Source: a virus
Taxonomy: Duplodnaviria > Heunggongvirae > Uroviricota > Caudoviricetes
IMG/VR virus record: IMGVR_UViG_3300014970_000019
Coordinates: 1-18,888 of that record
Direction: 5' to 3' (one strand)
Length of the DNA: 18,888 nucleotides
The stretch's first letter is position 1. Every line of letters begins with the position of its first letter. Positions 926-13,308 of this stretch are shown here, piece by piece. The position numbers and the translations under genes are program-made. The notes under the pieces are model-generated. The model was not told the origin of the DNA. It saw only the letters and a program-made list of their open reading frames with translations, and ran no database searches.

Positions 926-1957
926 TCAAAAACTTGCTATTGATGTTGGTAGTGTTGCCAGCGGATTAAACCGTAATGCAGTTTCCAGGTGATCCGGTGC
1001 CAGATGTGCGTAACGCATAGTCATTTTTATATCGTGGTGTCCGAGAATTTTTTGTAAGGCCAGAATGTTTCCACCCGACATCATGAAGTGCGCCGCAAAC
1101 GTATGGCGCAGAACGTGTGTCAGTTGACCGCGAGGGAGCACGATAGACGTTTTTTCCATCACGGATAAAAATTGAAAATAGCAGTCTGTAAAGAAATTGA
1201 ACCCATCAAGCGCCATGATCTCTTCGTAAAGCTCTTTACTGATAGGGATGCTTCTGTTTTTCTTCCCCTTCGTTCTTACAAAGGTAATTCGGTATTTGGT
1301 CACCTGTGAGCGGGTAAGATTTACGGCTTCACGCCAACGTGCGCCTGTGCTTAAGCATATCTTAACTACCAGTGCCAGAATTGGGTCCTGACGTTTGCAA
1401 TCAGCCAGCAATTCAACAATCTGCTCATGGGTAAGCCATGCCATCTCTTTTTCTGCGATGGTGAATTTTCGCATGTTCTCCAGTGGGTTCGGATACGACC
1501 ATTCGCCCAGACGGGATAGTTCGCTAAAAACACTACTTAGATAGCTTTGCTCCAGGTTAATGGTGACCGGGCTTGCTCCTTTCTTCCATTTCTCGCTGAA
1601 GTAGATCTCGCCTGTCAGGCGTTTATCTCGATAGTGGGCAAACATTTTAGAGGTGAGATCGGTTGCAAGAGGATTGCCCAGAGCGTCAACCATCAACAGC
1701 AATTTGTCATAGACATGCTGCCCAGCTGTCAGAGATTTACCATGTAGTTTGAACCATAGTTCAACCACGTCTTTCAGTGTTCGACGATCCACTGATTCAC
1801 CCAGCCAGGGCTTTGCTTCGGTTTCTTCCATCGTGTGGCGCTCAAAAGCCAGAGCTTCGCCTTTGGTGGCGAATTGTTTACGCACACGACGCCCACTACG
1901 TCCGGCGGGGTAACATTCGCAAAGCCATTTTCCTGTGGTGAGTTTTCGTACTGCCAT
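926..1957 (-). CDS. int: Phage integrase, tyrosine recombinase (P2/186 Int-like)
   Basis: Translation starts MAVRKLTTGKW, typical of P2-family Int N-termini. The C-terminal catalytic region carries the R...HxxR...Y signature context (LRHTFAAHFMMSGG, HHDIKMTMRYAHL). Start moved to the internal ATG at 1957 (RBS ggaggg upstream); the longer 926-2035 ORF is rejected. Confidence 0.9.
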   Translation of the reverse strand: MAVRKLTTGKWLCECYPAGRSGRRVRKQFATKGEALAFERHTMEETEAKPWLGESVDRRTLKDVVELWFKLHGKSLTAGQHVYDKLLLMVDALGNPLATDLTSKMFAHYRDKRLTGEIYFSEKWKKGASPVTINLEQSYLSSVFSELSRLGEWSYPNPLENMRKFTIAEKEMAWLTHEQIVELLADCKRQDPILALVVKICLSTGARWREAVNLTRSQVTKYRITFVRTKGKKNRSIPISKELYEEIMALDGFNFFTDCYFQFLSVMEKTSIVLPRGQLTHVLRHTFAAHFMMSGGNILALQKILGHHDIKMTMRYAHLAPDHLETALRFNPLATLPTSIASF

Positions 1958-2143
1958 AAAAAATGCCCTCCAATAGAGAGTATTTTTACTGTATGTATAA
2001 CCAGTGTCAATGTATGAAATCTTGCGACCATACATCTCACTGAAGCCATAATGAAGTTGGCTATTTTTTGCTATGTGAGTATGTAACTTTTGCGGTTAGC
2101 CTGCGGCTCATTGTTATATTAGGCGCAGATATAAAAGCAAAGT

Positions 2144-2350: not shown

Positions 2351-2920
2351 TTATCTAACATATTTAACTGTTAAACTTATAATTTTTCCAATTATTTCAA
2401 CATCTTCTATCTTGCAGTCGAAGGCTCTGTTTCCACCTTCAACGAAGATTCTTCCACCGGGTAAACGAGTAATGTCGCGGATTGTTATCTCGCCATCAAT
2501 ACTTATTACCCATTTACCATCACGTATATCATCAAATTCTTTATCACAAATAAATTCAGAATTGTTATCTGTGATGACAAAAGGTTTTTTAAACGTAGAG
2601 GGTAGAAATCCCTTATCAAAAATATAAAAACCGTCTTCACGCAAGGCACCATCAGATAATACATATTTAGCAACTTCCATAGTATTTGTATTACCTGAAG
2701 TTTGCTTTGAACCATGTCCAGTTGTGAGCCAATTAAGCGAGGTGCCCGTTTCAAGGGCGCACTGGATTACCCATTCTGCTGGGAATGAGTCACGCATGTA
2801 GCGTGTGGCGAGTGTACTTTTAGAGATTCCTAAATGATCGCACAACGCCTGTCGAGTTTTGAATCCATAAGCTTCTACCATGCGCTCTATAGCGCCTCGT
2901 CCGCCTTTCTCCAAATTCAT
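2351..2920 (-). CDS. cI: CI-type immunity repressor (phage 186 CI-like)
   Basis: About 189 aa, with an N-terminal HTH region (ERMVEAYGFKTRQALCDHLGISKSTLATRYMRD) and a C-terminal oligomerisation-type domain. Divergent from the early operon and adjacent to int, as in 186. Start set at ATG 2920 (RBS ggag 5 nt upstream); the GTG at 2926 is the alternative. Confidence 0.8.
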   Translation of the reverse strand: MNLEKGGRGAIERMVEAYGFKTRQALCDHLGISKSTLATRYMRDSFPAEWVIQCALETGTSLNWLTTGHGSKQTSGNTNTMEVAKYVLSDGALREDGFYIFDKGFLPSTFKKPFVITDNNSEFICDKEFDDIRDGKWVISIDGEITIRDITRLPGGRIFVEGGNRAFDCKIEDVEIIGKIISLTVKYVR

Positions 2921-2944
2921 GGTCACTCCAAGTGAACTTTTATC

Positions 2945-3267: not shown

Positions 3268-3299
3268 TTCGATTCTGAAATACATCAGAGGCATTGACC

Positions 3300-3809
3300 A
3301 TGTTTGATTACCAAGTTTCCAAACATCCACATTTTGATGAAGCCTGTCGTGCATTCGCACTGCGCCACAACCTGGTGCAACTGGCAGAACGTGCAGGCAT
3401 GAATGTGCAGATTCTGCGGAACAAGCTGAACCCAGCTCAACCTCATTTATTAACCGCACCAGACATCTGGCTGCTTACCGATCTGACTGAGGACTCAACA
3501 CTGGTAGATGGTTTTCTGGCACAGATTCATTGTCTGCCATGTGTTCCGATTAATGAGGTGGCAAAAGAGAAACTGCCGCATTACGTCATGAGTGCAACTG
3601 CAGAGATAGGACGTGTCGCGGCAGGTGCGGTTTCTGGCGATGTAAAAACCAGTGCAGGCCGTCGTGATGCGATCAGCAGCATTAACTCTGTAACACGACT
3701 GATGGCGCTGGCTGCTGTTTCATTGCAGGCCCGTTTACAGGCTAATCCTGCGATGGCGAGTGCAGTTGATACCGTGACTGGCCTCGGTGCTTCATTCGGT
3801 TTGCTGTGA
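3300..3809 (+). CDS. CII-like lysogeny establishment regulator (186 CII-like)
   Basis: 169 aa from ATG 3300, the same length as 186 CII as I recall it. It is the second gene of the early operon. RBS agagg at 3287-3291. Confidence 0.6.
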
Positions 3810-4623: not shown

Positions 4624-4850
4624 TGGCTGATGCAATGGATCTCGTACAGCAGCGCGTTGAAGAAGAACGCCAGCGCCATATCCGTGCTGCCCGTGCCAAA
4701 ACACCGGGCGTGTCTCGCGTGCTTTGTATTGAATGTGAAGCGCCAATTCCGCCAGCACGCCGCCGCGCCATTCCAGGAGTGCAGCTTTGCATTACCTGCC
4801 AGGAAATCGCAGAGCTGAAAGGTAAACATTACAACGGAGGTGCTGTATGA
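4623..4850 (+). CDS. TraR/DksA-family C4 zinc-finger protein
   Basis: CIECEAP-x16-CITCQ gives a C-x2-C-x17-C-x2-C spacing at the C-terminus of a 75-aa protein, characteristic of phage TraR/DksA-like proteins in P2-family early regions. Confidence 0.75.
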   Translation: MADAMDLVQQRVEEERQRHIRAARAKTPGVSRVLCIECEAPIPPARRRAIPGVQLCITCQEIAELKGKHYNGGAV

Positions 4851-5704
4851 GCACCATCCTGAAATGGGCGGGAAATAAAACCGCCATTATGTCCGAACTG
4901 AAAAAATACCTTCCTGCTGGCCCGCGACTGGTTGAACCTTTCGCGGGTTCTTGTGCTGTGATGATGGCGACGGATTACCCCAGCTATCTGGTTGCGGATA
5001 TTAATCCTGATTTAATCAACCTCTATAAAAAGATTGCCGCTGATTGCGAAGCGTTTATATCTCGTGCCAGAGTTTTATTTGAGGAAGCAAACAGTGAGCT
5101 GGCTTATTACAACATAAGACAGGAGTTTAATTACTCAACTGAAATTACTGATTTCATGAAGGCGATATATTTCCTGTATCTCAATCGTCACGGTTACCGT
5201 GGTTTATGTCGCTATAACAAGAGCGGGCATTTCAACATTCCCTACGGTAATTATAAAAATCCGTATTTCCCTGAAAAAGAAATTCGCGCATTTGCAGAGA
5301 AAGCCCCGCGGGCAACGTTTATCTGCACGAGCTTTGATGAAACGCTGGCGATGTTGAAGGCGGGGGATGTGGTGTATTGCGATCCGCCTTATGACGGTAC
5401 GTTTTCCGGCTATCACACTGATGGTTTCACTGAAGATGACCAGTATCACCTGGCATCCGTTCTTGAACATCGAGCATCTGAAGGACATCCGGTCATTGTT
5501 TCTAACAGTGACACATCCCTGATCCGTTCGCTGTATCGCAATTTCACTCACTACTACATCAAGGCAAAACGCAGCATCGGCGTGTCGGCTGGCGAGAGTA
5601 AATCTGCAACAGAAATCATTGCTGTTTCCGGGGCGCGCTGCTGGGTGGGATTTGATCCTTCGCGTGGCGTGGATAGTTCTGCTGTGTACGAGGTGCGTGT
5701 ATGA
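4847..5704 (+). CDS. dam: DNA adenine methyltransferase (Dam-like N6-MTase)
   Basis: N-terminal SAM-binding motif ([11 protein letters not shown]) and catalytic DPPY motif (CDPPYDG). About 285 aa. Start overlaps the TraR stop (ATGA). Confidence 0.85.
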
Positions 5705-8115
5705 GTCATGCCGATATGAGCGACTCTAGCGGCTTTAACGAGGCCGCTGCAGCATTTTCATGGAACGGCCCGAAAAAGGCCATAAACCCTTATCTGGACC
5801 CGGCGGAAGTTGCGCCGGTTTCTGCGCTTTCAAACCTGATCACTCTGTATGCTGCCGATAACGAGCAGGAACAGCTGCGCCGCGAGGAATTGAGTGAACA
5901 GGTCTGGGAGCGTTATTTCTTTAATGAATCCCGTGATCCTGTCCAGCGCGAAATGGAGCAGGATAAGCTCATTAGTCGGGCAAAGCTGGCGCATGAGCAG
6001 CAGCGTTTTAACCCGGACATGGTCATTCTGGCGGACGTCAGCGCCCAGCCCACCCACATCAGCAAGCCGCTGATGCAAAGTATCGAATACTTCTGCAGCC
6101 TTGGCAGGCCAAAGGCTTATTCCCGCTATTTGCGTGAGACGATTAAGCCATGTCTGGAGCGACTGGATTGTGTACGCGACAGTCAGCTATCTACTTCTTT
6201 CCGTTTTATGGCAAGCCATCAAGGGCTGGAGGGCCTGCTGATCCTGCCTGAAATGAGTCAGGATCAGGTGAAACGCCTGTCCACCCTGGTAGCTGCGCAT
6301 ATGAGCATGTGTCTTGAGGCCGCTTGTGGTGATTTGTATACCAACGATGACGTAAAGCCAGAAGAAATCCGCAAGACATGGGAAAAGGTGGCAGCGGAAA
6401 CCCTGCGTCTGGATGTTATCCCGCCTGCGTTTGAGAAACTTCGTCGGAAAAGAAACCGCCGCAAACCTGTGCCCTATGAACTCATTCCGGGTTCGCTGGC
6501 ACGTATGCTTTGCGCCGACTGGTGGTATCGAAAATTGTGGAAGATGCGTTGCGAATGGCGGGAAGAGCAGTTGCGTGCTGTCTGTCTGGTCAGCAAAAAA
6601 GCATCTCCCTATGTCAGCTATGAAGCAGTGACGCATAAACGTGAGCAGCGCCGCAAGTCGCTGGAGTTTTTCCGTTCTCATGAACTGGTGAACGAAGACG
6701 GAGACACGCTGGATATGGAAGATGTGGTAAACGCCAGCAGCAGCAACCCGGCACATCGCCGCAATGAGATGATGGCCTGCGTTAAAGGTCTGGAGCTTAT
6801 CGCGGAAATGCGCGGTGACTGCGCCGTTTTCTACACCATCACATGTCCGTCACGTTTCCATTCCACGCTCAATAACGGCAGGCCCAACCCGACCTGGACA
6901 AATGCGACGGTAAGACAAAGCAGCGATTATCTGGTCGGCATGTTTGCTGCATTTCGTAAGGCGATGCACAAAACCGGGTTGCGCTGGTATGGCGTACGGG
7001 TGGCTGAGCCGCACCATGACGGTACTGTGCACTGGCATCTCATGTGTTTCATGCGCAAAAAAGACCGCCGCGCCATTACTGCATTGTTGCGTAAGTTTGC
7101 CATCCGTGAAGACCGCGAGGAGCTGGGCAATAACACGGGCCCACGCTTTAAGTCTGAGCTGATAAACCCACGCAAAGGAACGCCGACAAGCTACATCGCA
7201 AAATACATCAGTAAGAACATTGACGGGCGTGGTCTGGCTAACGAGATCAGCAAGGAAACGGGTAAATCCCTGCGTGATAACGCCGAATACGTTAATGCCT
7301 GGGCGTCTCTGCATCGTGTTCAGCAGTTCCGCTTCTTTGGTATTCCGGGGCGCCAGGCTTACCGTGAACTTCGCTTGCTGGCTGGTCAGGCGGCAAGGCA
7401 ACAGGGTGACAAAAAAGCAGGTGCGCCGGTACTGGATAACCCGCGCCTTGATGCCATCCTGGCTGCTGCTGATGCTGGTTGTTTTGCCACCTACATCATG
7501 AAGCAGGGCGGCGTACTGGTTCCCCGCAAATATCACCTCATCAGAACCGCTTATGAAATCAACGAAGAGCCAACCGCCTATGGCGATCACGGTATTCGTA
7601 TTTATGGCATCTGGTCACCCATTGCAGAGGGCAAGATCTGCACTCATGCAGTGAAGTGGAAAATGGTTCGTAAGGCCGTTGACGTTCAGGAGGCGGCAGC
7701 CGACCAGGGCGCTTGCGCCCCTTGGACTCGTGGCAATAACTGTCCCCTTGCTGAAAATTTGAACCAACAGGAGAAAGATAAATCAGCTGATGGGGACACC
7801 AGAACGGATATTACCCGCATGGATGACAAGGCGTTGCACGATTATCTGCACAGTATGAGCAAAAAAGAGCGCCGGGAACTGGCAGCAAGGTTACGCCTGG
7901 TTAAGCCGAAACGGCGTAAAGACTACAAACAGCGAATTACAGATCATCAGCGACAGCAGCTCGTCTATGAACTGAAGTCCAGAGGATTTGATGGCAGCGA
8001 GAAAGAGGTCGATTTACTCCTTCGCGGTGGCAGTATTCCGTCAGGAGCAGGCCTGCGTATCTTCTATCGGAACCAGCGTTTGCAGGAAGATGATAAGTGG
8101 CGAAACCTGTATTAA
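5701..8115 (+). CDS. A: Rolling-circle replication initiation endonuclease (P2 gpA-like)
   Basis: 804-aa protein with an HxH metal-binding motif ([10 protein letters not shown]) and downstream Tyr residues (YIAKYISK), typical of P2 A / HUH endonucleases. Start overlaps the dam stop (ATGA). Confidence 0.9.
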
Positions 8116-8267: not shown

Positions 8268-8456
8268 ATGCAGGACTATTTTTTGGAGTCTTTGAAGCTC
8301 CAGCGCATTGATTTTTTTCTTAAGCTTGTAGCGGCTAGTGAGTGTAGTGATGAAGAGAAGGGGCTGGCTCTGCAGTGGGTTTCTGAACTGACAGATGAAC
8401 TCATGGCAAAAATCAGAACCCACGAATACAACCGCTCAATGGATGTCATCAGCTGA
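8268..8456 (+). CDS. Small hypothetical protein (62 aa), first gene of the SOS-controlled module (possible Tum N-terminal-like antirepressor part)
   Basis: Strong RBS aggagg at 8258-8263 with ATG at 8268. Lies downstream of the LexA box, and its stop overlaps the RBS of the DinI-like gene. Confidence 0.5.
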   Translation: MQDYFLESLKLQRIDFFLKLVAASECSDEEKGLALQWVSELTDELMAKIRTHEYNRSMDVIS

Positions 8457-8466
8457 GGTGACTTTT

Positions 8467-8700
8467 ATGCGCATTGAAATAATGATCGATAAAGAGCAGA
8501 AGATTAGCCAGTCTACACTGGACGCCCTTGAATCCGAGCTTTACCGCAATCTGCGCCCCCTGTATCCCAAAACGGTAATTCGTATTCGCAAAGGTAGCTC
8601 TAACGGTGTGGAACTGACCGGACTGCAACTGGACGAAGAAAGAAAACAAGTGATGAAAATTATGCAGAAGGTGTGGGAAGACGACAGCTGGCTGCATTAA
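8467..8700 (+). CDS. DinI-family protein (phage Tum C-terminal/DinI-like)
   Basis: 77 aa starting MRIEIMIDKEQKIS and ending ...MQKVWEDDSWLH, which resembles the DinI pattern (MRIEV...; acidic C-terminus with W). RBS gaggtg upstream. Start trimmed from the track ORF 8395-8700. Confidence 0.8.
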   Translation: MRIEIMIDKEQKISQSTLDALESELYRNLRPLYPKTVIRIRKGSSNGVELTGLQLDEERKQVMKIMQKVWEDDSWLH

Positions 8701-8859: not shown

Positions 8860-8904
8860 GCGTAGATCATGCACCTGCATGAAAACCACTACATAAAGCG
8901 GGCA

Positions 8905-8923
8905 GGCGTGGCGGGGATACGAG
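8905..8923. other. cos-like sequence (candidate cohesive-end site or remnant)
   Basis: ggcgtggcggggatacgag. The first 13 nt match the 186/P2 cohesive-end 19-mer as I recall it (GGCG[T/A]GGCGGGGAAAGCA[T/C]). It sits between the tum-like module and the portal-proximal region, where cos is expected. Confidence 0.35.
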
Positions 8924-9003
8924 CGCGCGCTGACATCGTTAAGTATTGACATATCAGATGTTTAAATAGGAAAATTACCAAAATCCAGAAAAAAGAAAAG
9001 AAT

Positions 9004-10152
9004 ATGAAGAAGTTAACTGCGAGACAAAGAGAGATTGACGTAAAACGCTCGATAAAGTTACGACAAGGACGTGCTAAAGTTAGAAAAAAAGGTAAATCAT
9101 TTCACTATAATGTTGAATGGCGTAAGGCTAACTATTGGATTGAAGAACAATCAAAAAATGGATTAGATGTACAATTTGTAAGTAAAAAAAAGAAAGGGTT
9201 AATTCTAACTTTACCTTCTGAAATGAATTTTTCTACACACTACGATGTTACTGTTCAGCATATTAATGCGATTCGAATGTTATCAGAGAGAAAAGGATTG
9301 CCTAATGCAGGTTATCAATTAGCATCTGTTAATTTTTGTAATTTGAAGAAAACATCGACATCTGCAGCTCTTGTGTTAACTGCAGAGTTATCTAAATGGG
9401 ATGATGCGATTAGGCAGAGGTTGACTCCAAAAATAGACGGTTGGGATAAAAATGTTCTACGTAATTTCTATGAATTGGGGTTCTTTGATTTATTCAAAAA
9501 AAGCAGGGATATAAAATTAAATTTTAATGATGAGTATTCAAAAATAAAAGGTAAGCGATTTGTAAAATATCTTAAAGGAAAGTGTGGGGAAATTAAGAAA
9601 ACAAAAGTATTAAAAGAGGAGATTATTAAATTAGTTGGTGAGTCTATTGAAAAATGGACTTTCTTACATGGGGGCCTAAGTGAGGCTATTACCAATGTTT
9701 CTCATCATGCATATCCTTCTGATTGCGGATATAAAGAATATGATAAGAACTGGTATCTAACAGGATCTTATCATTTAGAAAGTAAGGAATTGAAGATAGT
9801 TTTTTATGATCAGGGTGTTGGTATCCCTAAAACTTTACCTGCATCAAAAGTTTGGGAAAAGGCATTAAATGTATTAGCATCAATTCCTGTATTGGAGCGA
9901 TATCGTGATGAAGCACTCTTGAAAGCTGCGGTAGAGTTGGATAGGACAAGTACAGAAGAGGGAGATCGTGGTAAAGGCCTACAGGATCTACTTGAGTTTA
10001 TTAAACAAAGAGAAAATGGTTATTTATCAATCATGAGCCTTAAGGGACTTTATAAACACTCAATGAATCAAGGTAATACAAAAATAAAAACTAAGAGTTT
10101 TGCATCCCCAATCTATGGTACACTAATAACTTGGAGTGTATCTCTTGATTGA
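9004..10152 (+). CDS. Cargo gene 1: protein with C-terminal GHKL (HATPase_c) RsbW/SpoIIAB-like kinase/ATPase domain and Lys-rich N-terminal domain of unknown function
   Basis: 382-aa ORF in a strongly AT-rich island. N-box-like LSEAITNVSHHAY (about aa 226-238), G1-box-like YDQGVGIP (about aa 268-275) and G2-box-like GDRGKGLQDL (about aa 320-329), in the order and spacing of GHKL ATPases. Family assignment is by motif, not by search. Confidence 0.65.
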   Translation: MKKLTARQREIDVKRSIKLRQGRAKVRKKGKSFHYNVEWRKANYWIEEQSKNGLDVQFVSKKKKGLILTLPSEMNFSTHYDVTVQHINAIRMLSERKGLPNAGYQLASVNFCNLKKTSTSAALVLTAELSKWDDAIRQRLTPKIDGWDKNVLRNFYELGFFDLFKKSRDIKLNFNDEYSKIKGKRFVKYLKGKCGEIKKTKVLKEEIIKLVGESIEKWTFLHGGLSEAITNVSHHAYPSDCGYKEYDKNWYLTGSYHLESKELKIVFYDQGVGIPKTLPASKVWEKALNVLASIPVLERYRDEALLKAAVELDRTSTEEGDRGKGLQDLLEFIKQRENGYLSIMSLKGLYKHSMNQGNTKIKTKSFASPIYGTLITWSVSLD

Positions 10153-10166
10153 GATGGAGGTTTAAT

Positions 10167-10580
10167 ATGAAAAATCTAGAAATTAATATAGGGAAAGAGT
10201 TTTCTTCTACTCCTTCAGGACGTTTCTATTCTGATATGACAGATAGCAGCGGCGAACAGTTTAGAGAGGAGCTTTTATGGCCTCGCTTACAGTTGCTTAA
10301 AGAAAAGCAAAAGATCGACATTATTTTGGATGATGACGTTGAAGGTTATGGTTCTTCTTTCCTCGTTGAAGGTTTTGCCGGTATAGTAAAATATGGATAT
10401 ATGGATAAACAACAACTATTAAGTAAACTTGAGTTAATTCAGAGAGATCCTGATTTTGCTTTGTTTAAGAGAAAAATAATACAATATATTAACGAGGCAG
10501 TGTTTGATTCAAAGGTTTATGAAAGTACCAAACCTATTTATTTGTCTAAGTTGTTGACGCAAAAAACACGTAAGGAGTAA
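10167..10580 (+). CDS. Cargo gene 2: small STAS-like / DUF4325-like protein (putative partner of gene 1)
   Basis: 137 aa from ATG 10167, with RBS ggagg at 10156-10160 lying inside the end of gene 1 (translational coupling). The motif IDIILDDDVEGYGSSFLVEGFAGIV resembles STAS/DUF4325 cores that pair with HATPase proteins. The track ORF starts at a TTG at 10149. Confidence 0.6.
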   Translation: MKNLEINIGKEFSSTPSGRFYSDMTDSSGEQFREELLWPRLQLLKEKQKIDIILDDDVEGYGSSFLVEGFAGIVKYGYMDKQQLLSKLELIQRDPDFALFKRKIIQYINEAVFDSKVYESTKPIYLSKLLTQKTRKE

Positions 10581-10585
10581 AGCAA

Positions 10586-11230
10586 ATGGAGCCCAATTAT
10601 AATTATCATTATATGATGAGTAATAATGAGCTTTATTTTAGGGCGGGTTATGATGCTCAGCAATATGGGGTTGTTTTTTCTCATTCGGCTGTTGATAATG
10701 TCGACTTGATACATATTATCAATGGTGGTTTTTCATCTGTTGCAGAAGCTATTAGTAACTCAGGAAACACCACACTTTCTGATGGGATTATACTTGCATT
10801 AGCAGGTGCGTTGAGTGCTTTTTTCTTTAATTTGATTCAAAAAGGAATTGACGCTAAGGCAAAACGTCTCACCAAATCTGGTGAAGCAATGTTATCCTTG
10901 ATAAATGAATTGGAGGATATTGCAGTACGTTATTGGGTCAGAGGGCACGATTCATCTTGTGCTGATAATGAAAGCAATATTTGTGATGAGATTAATATCA
11001 AAGCCATGTTAATGACCTTGGATAAAAATATTAGGTTTATGGTTGATAATTTACCGTTAAAAAACAAGTCTTTAAATAAAAATAAGCTGGAGAAATTTTC
11101 TTCTGATATTTATGATTTGGCATCTGGTGAAGATTTCGAAGCAGAGGTTAGGCCTCCCAATAAAACAAAGGCCTTTGCTATATCGAAAAAATGTAGTGAA
11201 GCAAAAGCCATCATTCTTGGTTTGATTTAA
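10586..11230 (+). CDS. Cargo gene 3: hypothetical protein (214 aa) with a hydrophobic putative transmembrane segment
   Basis: Strong RBS aaggag at 10572-10577 with ATG at 10586. Hydrophobic stretch GIILALAGALSAFFFNLI around aa 67-84. AT-rich codon usage like genes 1 and 2. No family recognised. Confidence 0.6.
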   Translation: MEPNYNYHYMMSNNELYFRAGYDAQQYGVVFSHSAVDNVDLIHIINGGFSSVAEAISNSGNTTLSDGIILALAGALSAFFFNLIQKGIDAKAKRLTKSGEAMLSLINELEDIAVRYWVRGHDSSCADNESNICDEINIKAMLMTLDKNIRFMVDNLPLKNKSLNKNKLEKFSSDIYDLASGEDFEAEVRPPNKTKAFAISKKCSEAKAIILGLI

Positions 11231-12255
11231 AAACGGTAATCCTCAAAGTTAATTACTGTTATGTTTAACCAAATATTTAGCTCTGTTATTCTTTTCTGAA
11301 GAATTTCTAATTCATTTTTTACGAATACTTTGGCAGCTTTCTCCACATCCCCAAACCCCCCAACATTATTAGGCATTATCCCCATCATTTGCGGCGGCAC
11401 TCGGTGTGCTGCCATCATGTCATCGCGGCTGACATTTTTGATATTCAGAAATTCATCCTTCGCCGCGACTTCTGACAGAGGAATGATCTGAAGCCCGTCC
11501 TTTTTGCCGTTAGGCGAGTACATAAACAGATTGCGGAAGTTGCCAGGGCCTTTGGCGCTTTTCATCGCATTGCGGAGGTTGTTCACATCCTCCTGGTTTT
11601 GCGCGGCATCGGTCATGTACATGATAAAGCCCGCATGACTGCCGTTAATGTAATACTTGCGACGGAACAGCGTGGCGGACTCGTTGAGCAGGGCAGACGG
11701 AATGGCAGAAAGATAACCGGGCAGGCCGTAGATCTCCTGATTAATATCCGGTTCCATTAGGTGAAAAATGCTGCCTTTCGTGAACTGATACGGTTGCGTG
11801 GTCATGCCGTATTGCACAAACCAGTAGGTATCCAGATCTAATCCGCGTCGGGTGTATTTTGCCAGGGCAGGTTCAAGGGCGATCACTTCACCGAAGCGGT
11901 TCGTGCGTTTCTCTAGGTAGGCGTTACCAAATACCAGATAGTCCTGCACAAAACGTGAAAACGCCTGCTGGCTGAGCAGCGGATGAGGGATGTAGGTGCT
12001 GGTCAGTATGTTGCACTTTACGGCAATCGGTGAGCTGTGGTGCACGGCGGCGCGAAAGGTTCGCGCCAGCCCGTCGAAACTCACTGGTGGCTCATACCAG
12101 CGGTCCATCTGTACGCATTCCACATAGTCCAGTAATTCGCGGCGGTCCAGAACAGGAACGGGATCACCGAAGCTGAATGCTTCGGCTGAAGTTTGGTTTT
12201 TATGCAGGATCTGATTCGTCGCCGCAGCGCGGTTTTTCTTACTCTTTCCCATCAA
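11227..12255 (-). CDS. Q: Portal protein (P2 gpQ-like)
   Basis: 342 aa, close to the size of P2 Q. It follows the terminase fragment in operon order P then Q on the minus strand. Its stop overlaps the convergent stop of cargo gene 3. Confidence 0.8.
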   Translation of the reverse strand: MMGKSKKNRAAATNQILHKNQTSAEAFSFGDPVPVLDRRELLDYVECVQMDRWYEPPVSFDGLARTFRAAVHHSSPIAVKCNILTSTYIPHPLLSQQAFSRFVQDYLVFGNAYLEKRTNRFGEVIALEPALAKYTRRGLDLDTYWFVQYGMTTQPYQFTKGSIFHLMEPDINQEIYGLPGYLSAIPSALLNESATLFRRKYYINGSHAGFIMYMTDAAQNQEDVNNLRNAMKSAKGPGNFRNLFMYSPNGKKDGLQIIPLSEVAAKDEFLNIKNVSRDDMMAAHRVPPQMMGIMPNNVGGFGDVEKAAKVFVKNELEILQKRITELNIWLNITVINFEDYRF

Positions 12256-12911
12256 AAAATCTCCACAATATTGCTGGTATTGGCGGATTCGCCCTGCAGC
12301 GGTTCGTTAAACAGTGCGTGCATTGTTGCCCAGGCCAGATCGGCATGGCTGGCTTCTTCGCTGCGGCTGGCTTCATAGGTTGGGCGGTTGCCGCTGGCGG
12401 TGGTGGCGCGACGGATTGCCATAAATGACTGCGCTATGTCGGTGTGTCCGGCGTCAAACTCCAGACGACGGTGACTGATAATGTCGTAGGCCTTGAGTAC
12501 CAGGGCGTTTTTAACGTTGGGGTTGTAGACAAACTCCCGGACGGCTGGAAAAAACGCTTTCACGTTCTCGTAAACCCCGTGGCCGACACCTGTCGAGTCG
12601 ATGCCGATGTAGGTCACGTTGTACTGCTCGGTCAGTTTTTTGATGGCGTCAGCCTGGGCGCGGAAGTCCATCCCGCGCCACTGGTGACGCTCAAGAATGC
12701 GGAACTTACCACCCGGCACGGCTGGCGGTGCCACCACCACGCATCCGGCACTGTCGCCGTTCTGCGTACCTTTTGCCGGGTCATAACCGATCCACACTTC
12801 GCGCCAGCCAAACGGGCGCAGGGCCAGAGCATGAAAGTCGGTCCAGACTTCCCAACTGTCCACCATGCACGCCTGCAGCTCGCTGAGCGGAAACCAGAAC
12901 GACGTCACCAC
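12252..12911 (-). pseudogene. P: Terminase large subunit (gpP-like), C-terminal fragment only; 5'-truncated
   Basis: Immediately upstream of Q with an overlapping stop/start (ATGA), but only about 219-245 codons are open, against roughly 590 aa for P2 P. Identity as the terminase nuclease domain rests on operon position and the IGIDSTGVGHG motif. There is no credible start, and the frame runs into FI coding sequence on the opposite strand. Confidence 0.7.
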
Positions 12912-13308
12912 GCTTGTGCGTAAAGACGGTTTCCGCTTCTGGGGTTCCCGCTGCCTGAGTGATGACCCGCTCTTTGCCTTCGAAAACTACACCCGCACGG
13001 CGCAGGTGCTGATGGACACGATGGCAGAAGCACACATGTGGGCGGTGGATAAACCGCTTAACCCGTCGCTGGCCCGCGACATTATCGAAGGTATCCGCGC
13101 CAAAATGCGCAGCCTGGTCAGTCAGGGCTATCTCATTGGTGGTGATTGCTGGCTGGATGAGTCGGTGAACGACAAAGACACGCTGAAAGCCGGAAAACTC
13201 ACCATCGACTACGACTACACGCCAGTGCCGCCACTTGAAAACCTGATGCTGCGTCAGCGCATCACCGATCAGTACTTGGTGAATTTCGCCAGCCAGGTCA
13301 GCGCGTAA
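12835..13308 (+). pseudogene. FI: Tail sheath protein (gpFI-like), C-terminal fragment only; 5'-truncated
   Basis: Open frame from an in-frame stop at 12832-12834 to TAA at 13306-13308, at most about 157 codons, against about 396 aa for P2 FI. It sits immediately upstream of FII. The C-terminus ...[27 protein letters not shown] is sheath-like. Confidence 0.7.

What the first reader, a model, noticed from the sequence alone, without database searches (positions are those of the whole stretch)
9004..10580. Gene 1/gene 2 pair looks like an anti-sigma-factor kinase and antagonist (partner-switching) pair repurposed on a prophage
Gene 1 carries N-box (LSEAITNVSHHAY), G1 (YDQGVGIP) and G2 (GDRGKGL) motifs in the order typical of RsbW/SpoIIAB-type serine kinases. 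Gene 2 is a small protein with a STAS/DUF4325-like core (ILDDDVEGYGSSFLVEGF) and is translationally coupled to gene 1. Such pairs normally control sigma factors. Here there is no sigma factor, and gene 1 has an extra Lys-rich N-terminal domain of about 220 aa, suggesting a sensing or effector role.
Basis: inference. Interest (0 to 1): 0.7.

Follow-up and report, generated by a model that had tools for sequence, protein, structure and literature searches.

The report
Kinase–STAS–membrane protein prophage cassette
A defective P2/186-like E. coli prophage carries, in its known anti-phage "hotspot", a conserved three-gene cassette that probably works as an untested phage-defence switch: an anti-sigma-factor-type serine kinase, its small STAS-domain substrate, and a membrane-anchored helical protein.

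Summary

- The "extra N-terminal domain" of gene 1 is a polybasic tail followed by its own STAS-fold domain. This is the STAS-GHKL architecture of CapK/VapK.
- Gene 2 most likely starts at ATG 10167, not at the overlapping TTG.
- The unit has three genes. Gene 3 (10586-11230) encodes one transmembrane helix plus a four-helix bundle. It follows gene 2 in all 44 loci examined, from Proteobacteria to Planctomycetes, and in three other temperate phages.

The cassette has low GC and lies between cos and the portal gene, in the P2 defence hotspot. Rousset et al. 2022 list it there as an uncharacterised system (#61); it is not among the systems in their tested-systems table.

The closest characterised relative is VapKSC (Chambers et al. 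2026), but here a membrane protein replaces the PIN toxin. I rate it a new variant of a known kind. The defence function and the mechanism are inferred.

The parts
8946..8975 (+). Promoter-like site (TTGACA-18-GAAAAT, 10 of 12 matches), 29 nt upstream of gene 1.
   Evidence: Consensus scan. The region as a whole is not enriched for such sites, so this is only a candidate. It lies just downstream of a cos-like sequence at about 8900-8925.
9004..10152 (+). Gene 1 ('K', 382 aa): polybasic tail, STAS-fold domain, linker, then an RsbW/SpoIIAB-type GHKL serine kinase domain.
9004..9165 (+). K residues 1-54: Lys/Arg-rich tail (16 K/R and 3 D/E in the first 45 aa), partly helical and low-confidence in the model.
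   Evidence: Sequence and pLDDT profile. The basic composition is conserved even where the sequence is not: mean net charge +10 over the 55 aa before the STAS domain in 36 relatives.
9166..9498 (+). K residues ~55-165: STAS-fold domain. It carries an invariant S118 at the start of helix alpha2, Y80, and the LGFFD motif.
9646..10149 (+). K residues ~215-382: GHKL (Bergerat) ATP-binding kinase domain with N box (E227, N231, H235), G1 (D269-x-G271-x-G273), G2 (R322-G323-x-G325) and G3 (G372-T373).
10167..10580 (+). Gene 2 ('S', 137 aa from ATG 10167; SD GGAGG at 10156-10160): DUF4325 STAS-like protein with a conserved ~40-aa C-terminal tail. The putative phospho-acceptors S63 and S64 are encoded at 10353-10358.
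   Evidence: Pfam DUF4325 in 44 of 44 homologues. NCBI names are 'STAS-like/DUF4325 domain-containing protein'. S63 and S64 are invariant in 37 of 37. S63 aligns with VapS S48 and S64 with CapS S54. Start codon and SD.
10586..11230 (+). Gene 3 ('X', 214 aa; SD AAGGAG at 10573-10578): variable N-terminal region (1-63), one hydrophobic helix (~64-86, nt 10775-10843), then a helical bundle (87-214) with conserved YW (116-117) and TG-x-x-FE (180-185) motifs.
   Evidence: A homologous ORF follows gene 2 directly in 44 of 44 loci. All 44 form one phmmer cluster and each has one hydrophobic segment. AF2 model. Conservation. No Pfam, PDB or PADLOC match. Rousset 2022 Table S5B lists the identical protein with '1 TM in protein 3'.

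Best explanation
The finding is two-thirds of a three-gene accessory cassette, K-S-X, carried in the cos-proximal defence hotspot of a P2/186-like prophage. I propose it is an anti-phage, abortive-infection-type switch that works like VapKSC.

- K is an active serine kinase of the anti-sigma-factor (SpoIIAB/RsbW) type. It is fused to its own STAS domain and a polybasic tail.
- An infection cue switches K on. The cue is most likely single-stranded DNA or another nucleic acid, bound between the STAS and kinase domains and by the basic tail.
- K then phosphorylates the small STAS protein S on S63 or S64.
- Unphosphorylated S holds the membrane-anchored four-helix-bundle protein X inactive. Phosphorylation releases X, which damages or depolarises the inner membrane and stops growth before the invading phage completes its cycle.

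Shown here:
- the kinase fold and the intact catalytic motifs;
- the STAS and DUF4325 identities and the conserved acceptor serines;
- strict three-gene linkage across phyla;
- the hotspot and prophage locations.

Inferred:
- kinase activity on S;
- the trigger;
- the S-X interaction;
- X as a membrane-active effector;
- anti-phage function.
For: Fold and active site:
- The N, G1, G2 and G3 residues are invariant in 36 relatives.

Substrate:
- S is DUF4325, the same Pfam family as VapS (62.7 bits).
- Its invariant S63 and S64 align with VapS S48 and CapS S54, the experimentally defined regulatory serines (PMC13373217).

Architecture:
- K has STAS then GHKL in the same order as VapK and CapK.
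- Y80, present in 32 of 36 relatives, aligns with CapK W68. That residue is required for ssDNA activation of CapK.
- The basic tail is conserved in composition.

Linkage:
- K and S co-occur in 43 of 44 K-containing loci. X follows S in 44 of 44.
- The three proteins co-diverge (r 0.74-0.89), and X evolves about twice as fast.

Context:
- The cassette has 33-34% GC against about 54% in the flanks. It lies between cos and portal gene Q, which is the P2 hotspot of Rousset 2022.
- Their tables list the system as #61 'DUF4325' with 68 occurrences. A P4-satellite variant is #69.
- The E. coli paralogue P0098 sits at the same site.
- The same trio lies next to cI/cro in Marinobacter phage AS1 and Francisella phage KIRK. 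It also occurs in Klebsiella and Helicobacter prophages.

Precedent: VapKSC protects against phage Bas42, and that protection requires the kinase, the serine and the toxin.
Against: - No experiment exists for this family. It is absent from PADLOC 2023, and its DUF4325 label and signature motifs do not appear in Rousset's table of tested systems.
- Sequence similarity to VapK and CapK is weak (hhalign E 7e-5 to 8e-3 against single sequences, some with OCR errors). Similarity to VapS is limited to the serine motif.
- I could not reproduce the published equivalence of VapK F54 with Y80.
- No K-S or S-X complex could be modelled with the available tools.
- Chromosomal loci outside prophages show only a modest link to mobile or defence genes: integrases in at least 7 of 34 loci and a few methyltransferases.
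- No phosphatase is encoded that could reset the switch.
Confidence: 0.5

Rival explanations
1. Classic partner switching with the kinase as the inhibitor. K binds and silences X, as RsbW binds sigma-B. Unphosphorylated S competes for K and frees X. K phosphorylating S resets the system.
Against: No PP2C phosphatase is linked, and one would be needed to regenerate unphosphorylated S. In the closest characterised system the STAS protein, not the kinase, binds the toxin. S carries a conserved C-terminal tail, as VapS does.
Confidence: 0.15
2. X is the sensor or anchor, not the effector. Its hypervariable region in front of the membrane helix detects phage adsorption, injection or envelope stress. 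X then controls K at the membrane. The output is phosphorylation of S or of other host or phage proteins.
Against: With X as the sensor there is no effector in the operon. S is only a STAS domain plus a short tail, with no catalytic or DNA-binding domain. Many relatives have almost no residues before the membrane helix. K carries its own candidate sensing features: Y80 and the basic tail.
Confidence: 0.15
3. The cassette is not a defence system. It may be a toxin-antitoxin-like addiction or stress module that stabilises the prophage, or one that tunes lysogeny, lysis or superinfection exclusion for the phage's own benefit.
For: It persists in a prophage that has lost its head, lysis and baseplate genes, as addiction modules do. 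In phages AS1 and KIRK it lies beside the cI/cro immunity region. P2 hotspots also hold non-defence cargo such as partition systems and toxins. Chambers et al. note that such kinase modules respond to general DNA damage.
Against: The same cassette also occurs in chromosomes with no prophage nearby, for example Cycloclasticus L010. Its positions are classic moron or defence sites, and the nearest characterised relative does protect against phage. This reading overlaps with the main one more than it excludes it.
Confidence: 0.12
4. A CapK/CapS-type transcriptional switch that controls expression of neighbouring genes.
For: K shares the STAS-GHKL order, the GFFD motif and the W68-equivalent aromatic residue with CapK.
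Against: S has no wHTH or other DNA-binding domain and is only 120-137 aa. K has no HTH. The only conserved downstream gene is X, and the genes beyond it differ in every locus.
Confidence: 0.03

Closest known systems
VapKSC (VapK STAS-GHKL kinase, VapS STAS protein, VapC PIN toxin); Chambers et al., EMBO J 2026, PMC13373217
   Same: It is a three-gene operon in the order kinase, small STAS protein, third protein. The kinase is STAS then GHKL. The small protein is Pfam DUF4325 with a short C-terminal tail and a conserved serine (VapS S48, aligned with S63 here). It is found on mobile elements and defence islands. The GHKL domains align at hhalign E=6.9e-5.
   Different: The third gene here is a single-pass membrane protein with a four-helix bundle, not a PIN nuclease. 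K has a ~50-aa polybasic N-terminal tail that VapK lacks, and an invariant Ser (S118) in its own STAS domain. Apart from the kinase motifs and the serine motif there is no significant sequence similarity. Function is untested.
CapK/CapS (ssDNA-activated kinase and STAS-wHTH repressor upstream of CBASS, Bub and other operons); same paper
   Same: The kinase has STAS then GHKL. It has an aromatic residue at the CapK W68 position (Y80), an LGFFD-type motif, and an acceptor serine just before a conserved Phe (CapS S54, aligned with S64 here).
   Different: K has no HTH and S has no wHTH. No downstream immune operon is regulated. The output is probably protein-protein rather than transcriptional.
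SpoIIAB/SpoIIAA and RsbW/RsbV partner-switching modules
   Different: There is no sigma factor and no PP2C phosphatase. The kinase is fused to a STAS domain. Scores against the Pfam and NCBIfam models are far below their cut-offs. The third partner is a membrane protein.
Rousset et al. 2022 P2-hotspot system #61 'DUF4325' and P4-hotspot system #69 'HATPase_c | DUF4325' (catalogued, uncharacterised)
   Same: The locus is the same (between gpA/cos and gpQ). Both have three proteins with '1 TM in protein 3'. Protein 3 of #61 is identical to gene 3 of the window.
   Different: These are catalogue entries only. Their DUF4325 label and signature motifs are absent from the paper's table of tested systems. 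Proteins 1 and 2 shown for #61 are divergent homologues, possibly cluster representatives taken from other loci.

Membership tests
RsbW/SpoIIAB-type anti-sigma-factor serine kinases (Pfam HATPase_c_2; NCBIfam RsbW and SpoIIAB equivalogs) | GHKL/Bergerat fold with N, G1, G2 and G3 ATP-binding boxes | tested here: met
RsbW/SpoIIAB-type anti-sigma-factor serine kinases (Pfam HATPase_c_2; NCBIfam RsbW and SpoIIAB equivalogs) | Scores above the curated family thresholds | tested here: not met
   HATPase_c_2 14.1 bits against 27.4. RsbW 14.6 against 145. SpoIIAB 14.9 against 135.
RsbW/SpoIIAB-type anti-sigma-factor serine kinases (Pfam HATPase_c_2; NCBIfam RsbW and SpoIIAB equivalogs) | Linked to, and inhibits, a sigma factor | tested here: not met
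   No sigma-factor gene was seen beside the cassette in the window or in the loci whose gene tables were read. The conserved partner is a membrane protein. Binding itself cannot be tested here.
RsbW/SpoIIAB-type anti-sigma-factor serine kinases (Pfam HATPase_c_2; NCBIfam RsbW and SpoIIAB equivalogs) | Phosphorylates the STAS partner on a conserved serine | not testable with these tools
   The acceptor-position serines are invariant, but kinase activity needs biochemistry.
STAS-like DUF4325 (PF14213) | Match to the Pfam model | tested here: met
   The window protein scores 21.3-21.5 bits against a cut-off of 23, just below it. All 44 homologues tested match, best E=1.8e-8. Many have precomputed PF14213 hits and NCBI DUF4325 names.
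STAS-like DUF4325 (PF14213) | Conserved Ser/Thr at the start of helix alpha2 (the phospho-acceptor position of SpoIIAA, CapS and VapS) | tested here: met
   S63 and S64 are present in 37 of 37 relatives. They align with VapS S48 and CapS S54.
STAS-like DUF4325 (PF14213) | STAS three-dimensional fold for gene 2 itself | not tested
VapKSC toxin-antitoxin-like defence system | Kinase with STAS followed by GHKL | tested here: met
VapKSC toxin-antitoxin-like defence system | Small DUF4325 protein with a C-terminal tail and a conserved serine, encoded second | tested here: met
VapKSC toxin-antitoxin-like defence system | Third gene encodes a VapC-like PIN nuclease | tested here: not met
   Gene 3 has no PIN or other Pfam match in any of 26 relatives. 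The model shows a transmembrane helix plus a four-helix bundle.
VapKSC toxin-antitoxin-like defence system | Protects against phage; the toxin is neutralised by the STAS protein | not testable with these tools
   Needs cloning, toxicity assays and plaque assays.
CapK/CapS transcriptional controllers | HTH on the kinase and wHTH on the STAS protein | tested here: not met
   Neither protein has an HTH domain. K has a polybasic tail instead.
CapK/CapS transcriptional controllers | Aromatic ssDNA-stacking residue (CapK W68) between the STAS and GHKL domains | tested here: inconclusive
   Y80 (Y in 32 of 36 relatives, F in 1) aligns with W68 in both MAFFT and hhalign. The alignments are weak, and ssDNA binding was not tested.
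Rst_3HP (validated 'hp+hp+hp' P2-hotspot system, Rousset 2022) | Homology to the three E. coli E1114 proteins | tested here: not met
   I read the sequences from Table S2A. They show no resemblance to K, S or X. Their reported HHpred hints (SAVED, Ish1) also differ.

The most novel reading that the evidence does not exclude
K-S-X is a widespread, so far unvalidated family of anti-phage abortive-infection systems. K relatives fall into about 2,500 clusters at 50% identity, from Proteobacteria to Planctomycetes and in several temperate phages. In this reading, a nucleic-acid-activated anti-sigma-type kinase phosphorylates a STAS protein. That releases a new kind of membrane-anchored four-helix-bundle effector. 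The kinase's own STAS domain, with its invariant S118 at the canonical acceptor position, acts as a built-in pseudo-substrate or autophosphorylation gate.
Probability: 0.3. Interest if true: 0.7.

Novelty: new variant of a known kind. Interest (0 to 1): 0.55.

Why it matters
If the model holds, the kinase-STAS switch described in 2026 for CapKS and VapKSC is a general sensor module that can be attached to very different effectors. Here the effector would be an uncharacterised membrane protein family with no Pfam model. The family is large and occurs in classic prophage moron and defence hotspots of E. coli, Klebsiella, Pantoea, Yersinia, Helicobacter, Francisella and marine phages. It is missing from PADLOC (2023), so such scans do not count it.

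It gives a compact system of about 2.3 kb that can be cloned. With it one could test how phosphorylation of a STAS protein gates a membrane effector. One could also test whether ssDNA sensing is shared across these kinases.

Tried and rejected
1. PADLOC: no hit for K, S or X, their E. coli, P2-#61 or P4-#69 variants, or VapK/VapS.
2. PDB sequence and profile searches with genes 1-3 and alignments A1, A2 and A4 gave nothing meaningful.
3. I considered identity with the validated Rst_3HP 'three hypothetical proteins' P2 system. The published sequences are unrelated, so I rejected it.
5. Pfam scans of 26 gene 3 relatives gave scattered single hits only.
6. Apparent MADS hits (mad2, mad3, mad8) among neighbouring ORFs. 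The five-member neighbour cluster that matches the mad2 count consists of phage integrases. The mad3 and mad8 hits are probably ABC ATPases; I did not map these individually. I rejected this as evidence of a MADS association.
7. I considered a chimeric origin, with gene 3 identical to Rousset #61 protein 3 but genes 1 and 2 divergent. That table probably shows cluster representatives, and the exact 382+137+214-aa cassette occurs intact in about 150 Escherichia contigs. I do not claim chimerism.
8. Megablast found no copy of the cassette in 5,426 complete RefSeq E. coli genomes, although it is present in GenBank assemblies.
9. I could not reproduce the published structural equivalence of VapK F54 with CapK W68 from the OCR-derived VapK sequence; F22 aligned instead.
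10. Complex modelling of K-S or S-X is not possible with the monomer-only tool and its cap.
Full report
**1. What is in the sequence**

The window is a P2/186-like prophage. These genes are recognisable:
- integrase, 926-2035 (-)
- CI repressor, 2351-2926 (-)
- CII, 3294-3809
- Dam methylase, 4847-5704
- replication protein gpA, 5701-8115
- DinI, 8395-8700
- portal gpQ, 11227-12255 (-)
- tail genes from 12865 onwards

Between DinI and the portal gene lies a 2.3-kb island of 33-34% GC. The flanks are 53-57% GC. The island holds three closely spaced, same-strand ORFs: gene 1 (9004-10152, 382 aa), gene 2, and gene 3 (10586-11230, 214 aa).

A cos-like sequence sits at about 8900-8925. A promoter-like site (TTGACA-18-GAAAAT) sits at 8946-8975, just upstream of gene 1.

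ATG 10167, however, lies 6 nt after a GGAGG. It gives the 137-aa protein annotated in Escherichia genomes. I use that numbering below. Gene 3 has its own AAGGAG Shine-Dalgarno sequence.

**2. Gene 1 is a STAS-GHKL serine kinase of the anti-sigma-factor type**

Single-sequence family scans are sub-threshold:
- HATPase_c_2: 14.1 bits against 27.4
- RsbW and SpoIIAB: E about 0.02

The evidence therefore comes from homologues and structure.
- Gene 1 has 441 close full-length homologues, all annotated 'hypothetical'.
- A profile search finds 2,504 clusters at 50% identity with E<=1e-3. Of these, 465 have E<=1e-30. Almost all are 340-390 aa and match across the whole protein.
- An AF2 model built on 50 homologues has pLDDT 79 and pTM 0.78.
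- Foldseek ranks SpoIIAB first, with TM 0.65 on the target.
- In 36 non-redundant relatives, down to 25% identity and including Verrucomicrobia, Planctomycetes and Mesorhizobium, these residues are invariant: E227, N231 and H235 (N box); D269 and G271 (G1); R322, G323 and G325 (G2); G372 and T373 (G3).

The 'extra' N-terminal part is not one domain. Residues 1-45 carry 16 Lys/Arg against 3 acidic residues. This basic character is conserved even where the sequence is not: the mean net charge is +10 over the 55 residues before the next domain in 36 relatives.

**3. Gene 2 is a DUF4325 STAS-like protein with conserved acceptor serines**

The window protein scores 21.3 bits against the DUF4325 cut-off of 23. 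All 44 homologues tested match the model, best E=1.8e-8. Many are named 'STAS-like/DUF4325 domain-containing protein' by NCBI.

The motif Y-G-S63-S64-F-L-x-E-x-F-A/G-G is invariant in its serines in 37 of 37 relatives. A ~40-residue C-terminal tail is also conserved.

**4. The unit has three genes**

I examined 44 loci. They were fetched through exact-protein look-ups and a genome scan.
- Gene 1 and gene 2 homologues are adjacent in 43 of 44 gene-1 loci. The exception is a truncated copy.
- In every locus with gene 2, an ORF of 126-257 aa follows within a few bases.
- All 44 of these third ORFs form one homology cluster, and each has exactly one hydrophobic segment.

The same trio occurs in cultured or predicted temperate phages:
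- Marinobacter phage AS1, genes 41/40/39, beside cro/cI
- Francisella phage KIRK, Fhv_0046-48: 'HP', 'DUF4325' and 'HP, TM', beside cI (PMC7924643)
- a Helicobacter prophage
- a lambdoid Klebsiella prophage

The three proteins co-diverge, with correlations of pairwise identity between 0.74 and 0.89. Gene 3 evolves about twice as fast: mean pairwise identity is 0.24, against 0.43 for gene 1 and 0.50 for gene 2.

The gene 3 model is moderate (pLDDT 62, with the N-terminal 67 residues below 50). It shows a long helix from 64 to 119, whose first ~22 residues are hydrophobic. Three further helices pack with it into a four-helix bundle.

Lys and Arg residues directly after the hydrophobic stretch suggest that the bundle faces the cytoplasm. 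This is my inference from the positive-inside rule.

Conserved positions are Y116-W117, E135, K139, D177, T/S180-G181-x-x-F184-E185 and R189.

**5. Where it sits and what is already on record**

The interval between gpA/cos and portal gpQ is the P2 'hotspot of antiviral systems' defined by Rousset et al. 2022 (PMC9122126).

Their supplementary Table S5B lists system #61 'DUF4325': 68 occurrences, three proteins, '1 TM in protein 3'. Its protein 3 is identical to gene 3 of the window. Table S1 lists a P4-satellite variant, #69 'HATPase_c | DUF4325'.

The table of cloned and tested systems contains neither the DUF4325 label nor the signature motifs of K and S. The validated 'hp+hp+hp' system (Rst_3HP) has unrelated sequences.

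The exact cassette occurs in about 150 Escherichia contigs, always as gpA-DinI-cassette-portal. A 54%-identical paralogue, P0098, occupies the same site in many other E. coli P2-like prophages.

No variant hits PADLOC-DB 2023.

In chromosomal loci of other phyla the neighbours are mixed:
- Tyrosine recombinases lie nearby in at least 7 of 34 loci.
- There are a few DNA methyltransferases.
- Two further loci (Pantoea, Raoultella) are P2-type prophages.
- Some loci have plain housekeeping neighbours.

**6. Closest characterised systems**

Chambers et al. (EMBO J 2026, PMC13373217) describe two relevant systems.

CapK has HTH-STAS-GHKL and CapS has STAS-wHTH. ssDNA activates CapK, which phosphorylates CapS S54.

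VapKSC is a three-gene anti-phage toxin-antitoxin-like system. VapK (STAS-GHKL) is proposed to phosphorylate VapS, a STAS protein with a C-terminal tail, at S48. This releases the PIN toxin VapC.

Using the sequences from their Appendix Table S2, I found the following.
- VapS is a strong DUF4325 member (62.7 bits), the same Pfam family as gene 2.
- In a joint alignment, S63 falls on VapS S48 and S64 on CapS S54 (hhalign agrees for VapS).
- The gene 1 profile aligns with the VapK kinase domain at E=6.9e-5.
- It also aligns co-linearly over 184 columns with V. cholerae CapK, from the STAS domain to the G1 box (E=0.008).
- That alignment includes a shared (L/N)GFFD motif. It places Y80 (Y in 32 of 36 relatives) opposite CapK W68, the residue needed for ssDNA activation.

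These similarities are weak at the sequence level. The architectures agree, except for the third gene and the N-terminal tail.

**7. Most likely mechanism (confidence about 0.5)**

My best reading is a VapKSC-like phospho-switch used for phage defence.
- K senses an infection-associated nucleic-acid cue.
- K phosphorylates S at S63 or S64.
- S~P lets go of X.
- X's bundle then acts on the inner membrane and causes growth arrest.

Shown:
- the folds and the intact active site
- the acceptor serines
- the obligatory three-gene linkage
- the hotspot location

Inferred:
- every interaction
- the trigger
- the toxicity of X
- the defence phenotype

Rivals:
- Classic partner switching, with K sequestering X (0.15).
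- X as the sensor or anchor rather than the effector (0.15).
- A non-defence addiction or stress module (0.12).
- A CapKS-like transcriptional role (0.03). This is disfavoured because neither protein has a DNA-binding domain.

**8. Novelty and verdict**

What remains new is this family itself. It is a large, uncharacterised K-S-X lineage. A membrane protein replaces the PIN toxin, the kinase carries a polybasic tail, and the kinase's own STAS domain has an invariant serine (S118) at the canonical acceptor position.

I classify it as a new variant of a known kind, with interest 0.55. It is a good cloning target rather than a categorical surprise.

Noticed in passing
window 12252-13308: The prophage is defective. 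The large-terminase ORF keeps only its C-terminal RNaseH-like half (219 aa, 12252-12911, - strand). It abuts a fragment encoding only the C-terminal domain of the tail sheath (12865-13308). The scaffold, capsid, lysis and baseplate genes normally found between them are therefore deleted. Related Escherichia loci show other deletions (L049, L051), yet all keep the cassette.
   Followed up: partly
window 9355-9363 (gene 1 residues S118-T119-S120): The kinase's own STAS domain has an invariant serine (S118, 36 of 36 relatives) at the N-cap of helix alpha2, the canonical phospho-acceptor position of SpoIIAA-type STAS proteins. VapK, CapK and the P2-#61 and P4-#69 variants lack it. This suggests autophosphorylation or pseudo-substrate autoinhibition.
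   Followed up: partly
L006 8410-8796 and L008 3528-3908 (Klebsiella lambdoid prophage): The 82%-identical Klebsiella copy of the cassette sits in a lambda-like prophage (Rep O/P, DnaC-like and YdaS/T genes). It is followed by a 126-128-aa fragment of a P2-type portal gene. This suggests the cassette moved from a P2-like phage together with a piece of its flank.
   Followed up: no
window 8860-8925: A cos-like sequence (…AAGCGGGCAGGCGTGGCGGGGATACGAGCGCGCG…) resembles the P2/P4 cos region but differs from the P2 19-mer by more than 3 mismatches. Its reverse complement closely resembles the start of Rousset's cloned P2-hotspot fragment pFR109 (compared by eye). This places the cassette between cos and gene Q.
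   Followed up: partly
Rousset 2022 Table S5B, system #61 (PMC9122126 supplement 6): Protein 3 of that entry is identical to window gene 3. Its proteins 1 and 2 are only distant homologues of window genes 1 and 2. Either the table mixes cluster representatives, or kinase-STAS modules have been exchanged in front of the same third gene.
   Followed up: partly
window 8268-8456 and 8395-8700: A 62-aa ORF of unknown function precedes the DinI-like gene. It is also called as a gene in the related Escherichia prophages (for example L046 2683-2871). DinI itself is annotated there as 77 aa, so the window's 101-aa ORF probably starts further downstream.
   Followed up: no
window 9000-11200: The cassette has 33-34% GC and a strong positive GC skew (0.2-0.3). 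The rest of the prophage has 53-58% GC. This fits recent acquisition from a low-GC donor, although the closest homologues are all enterobacterial.
   Followed up: no
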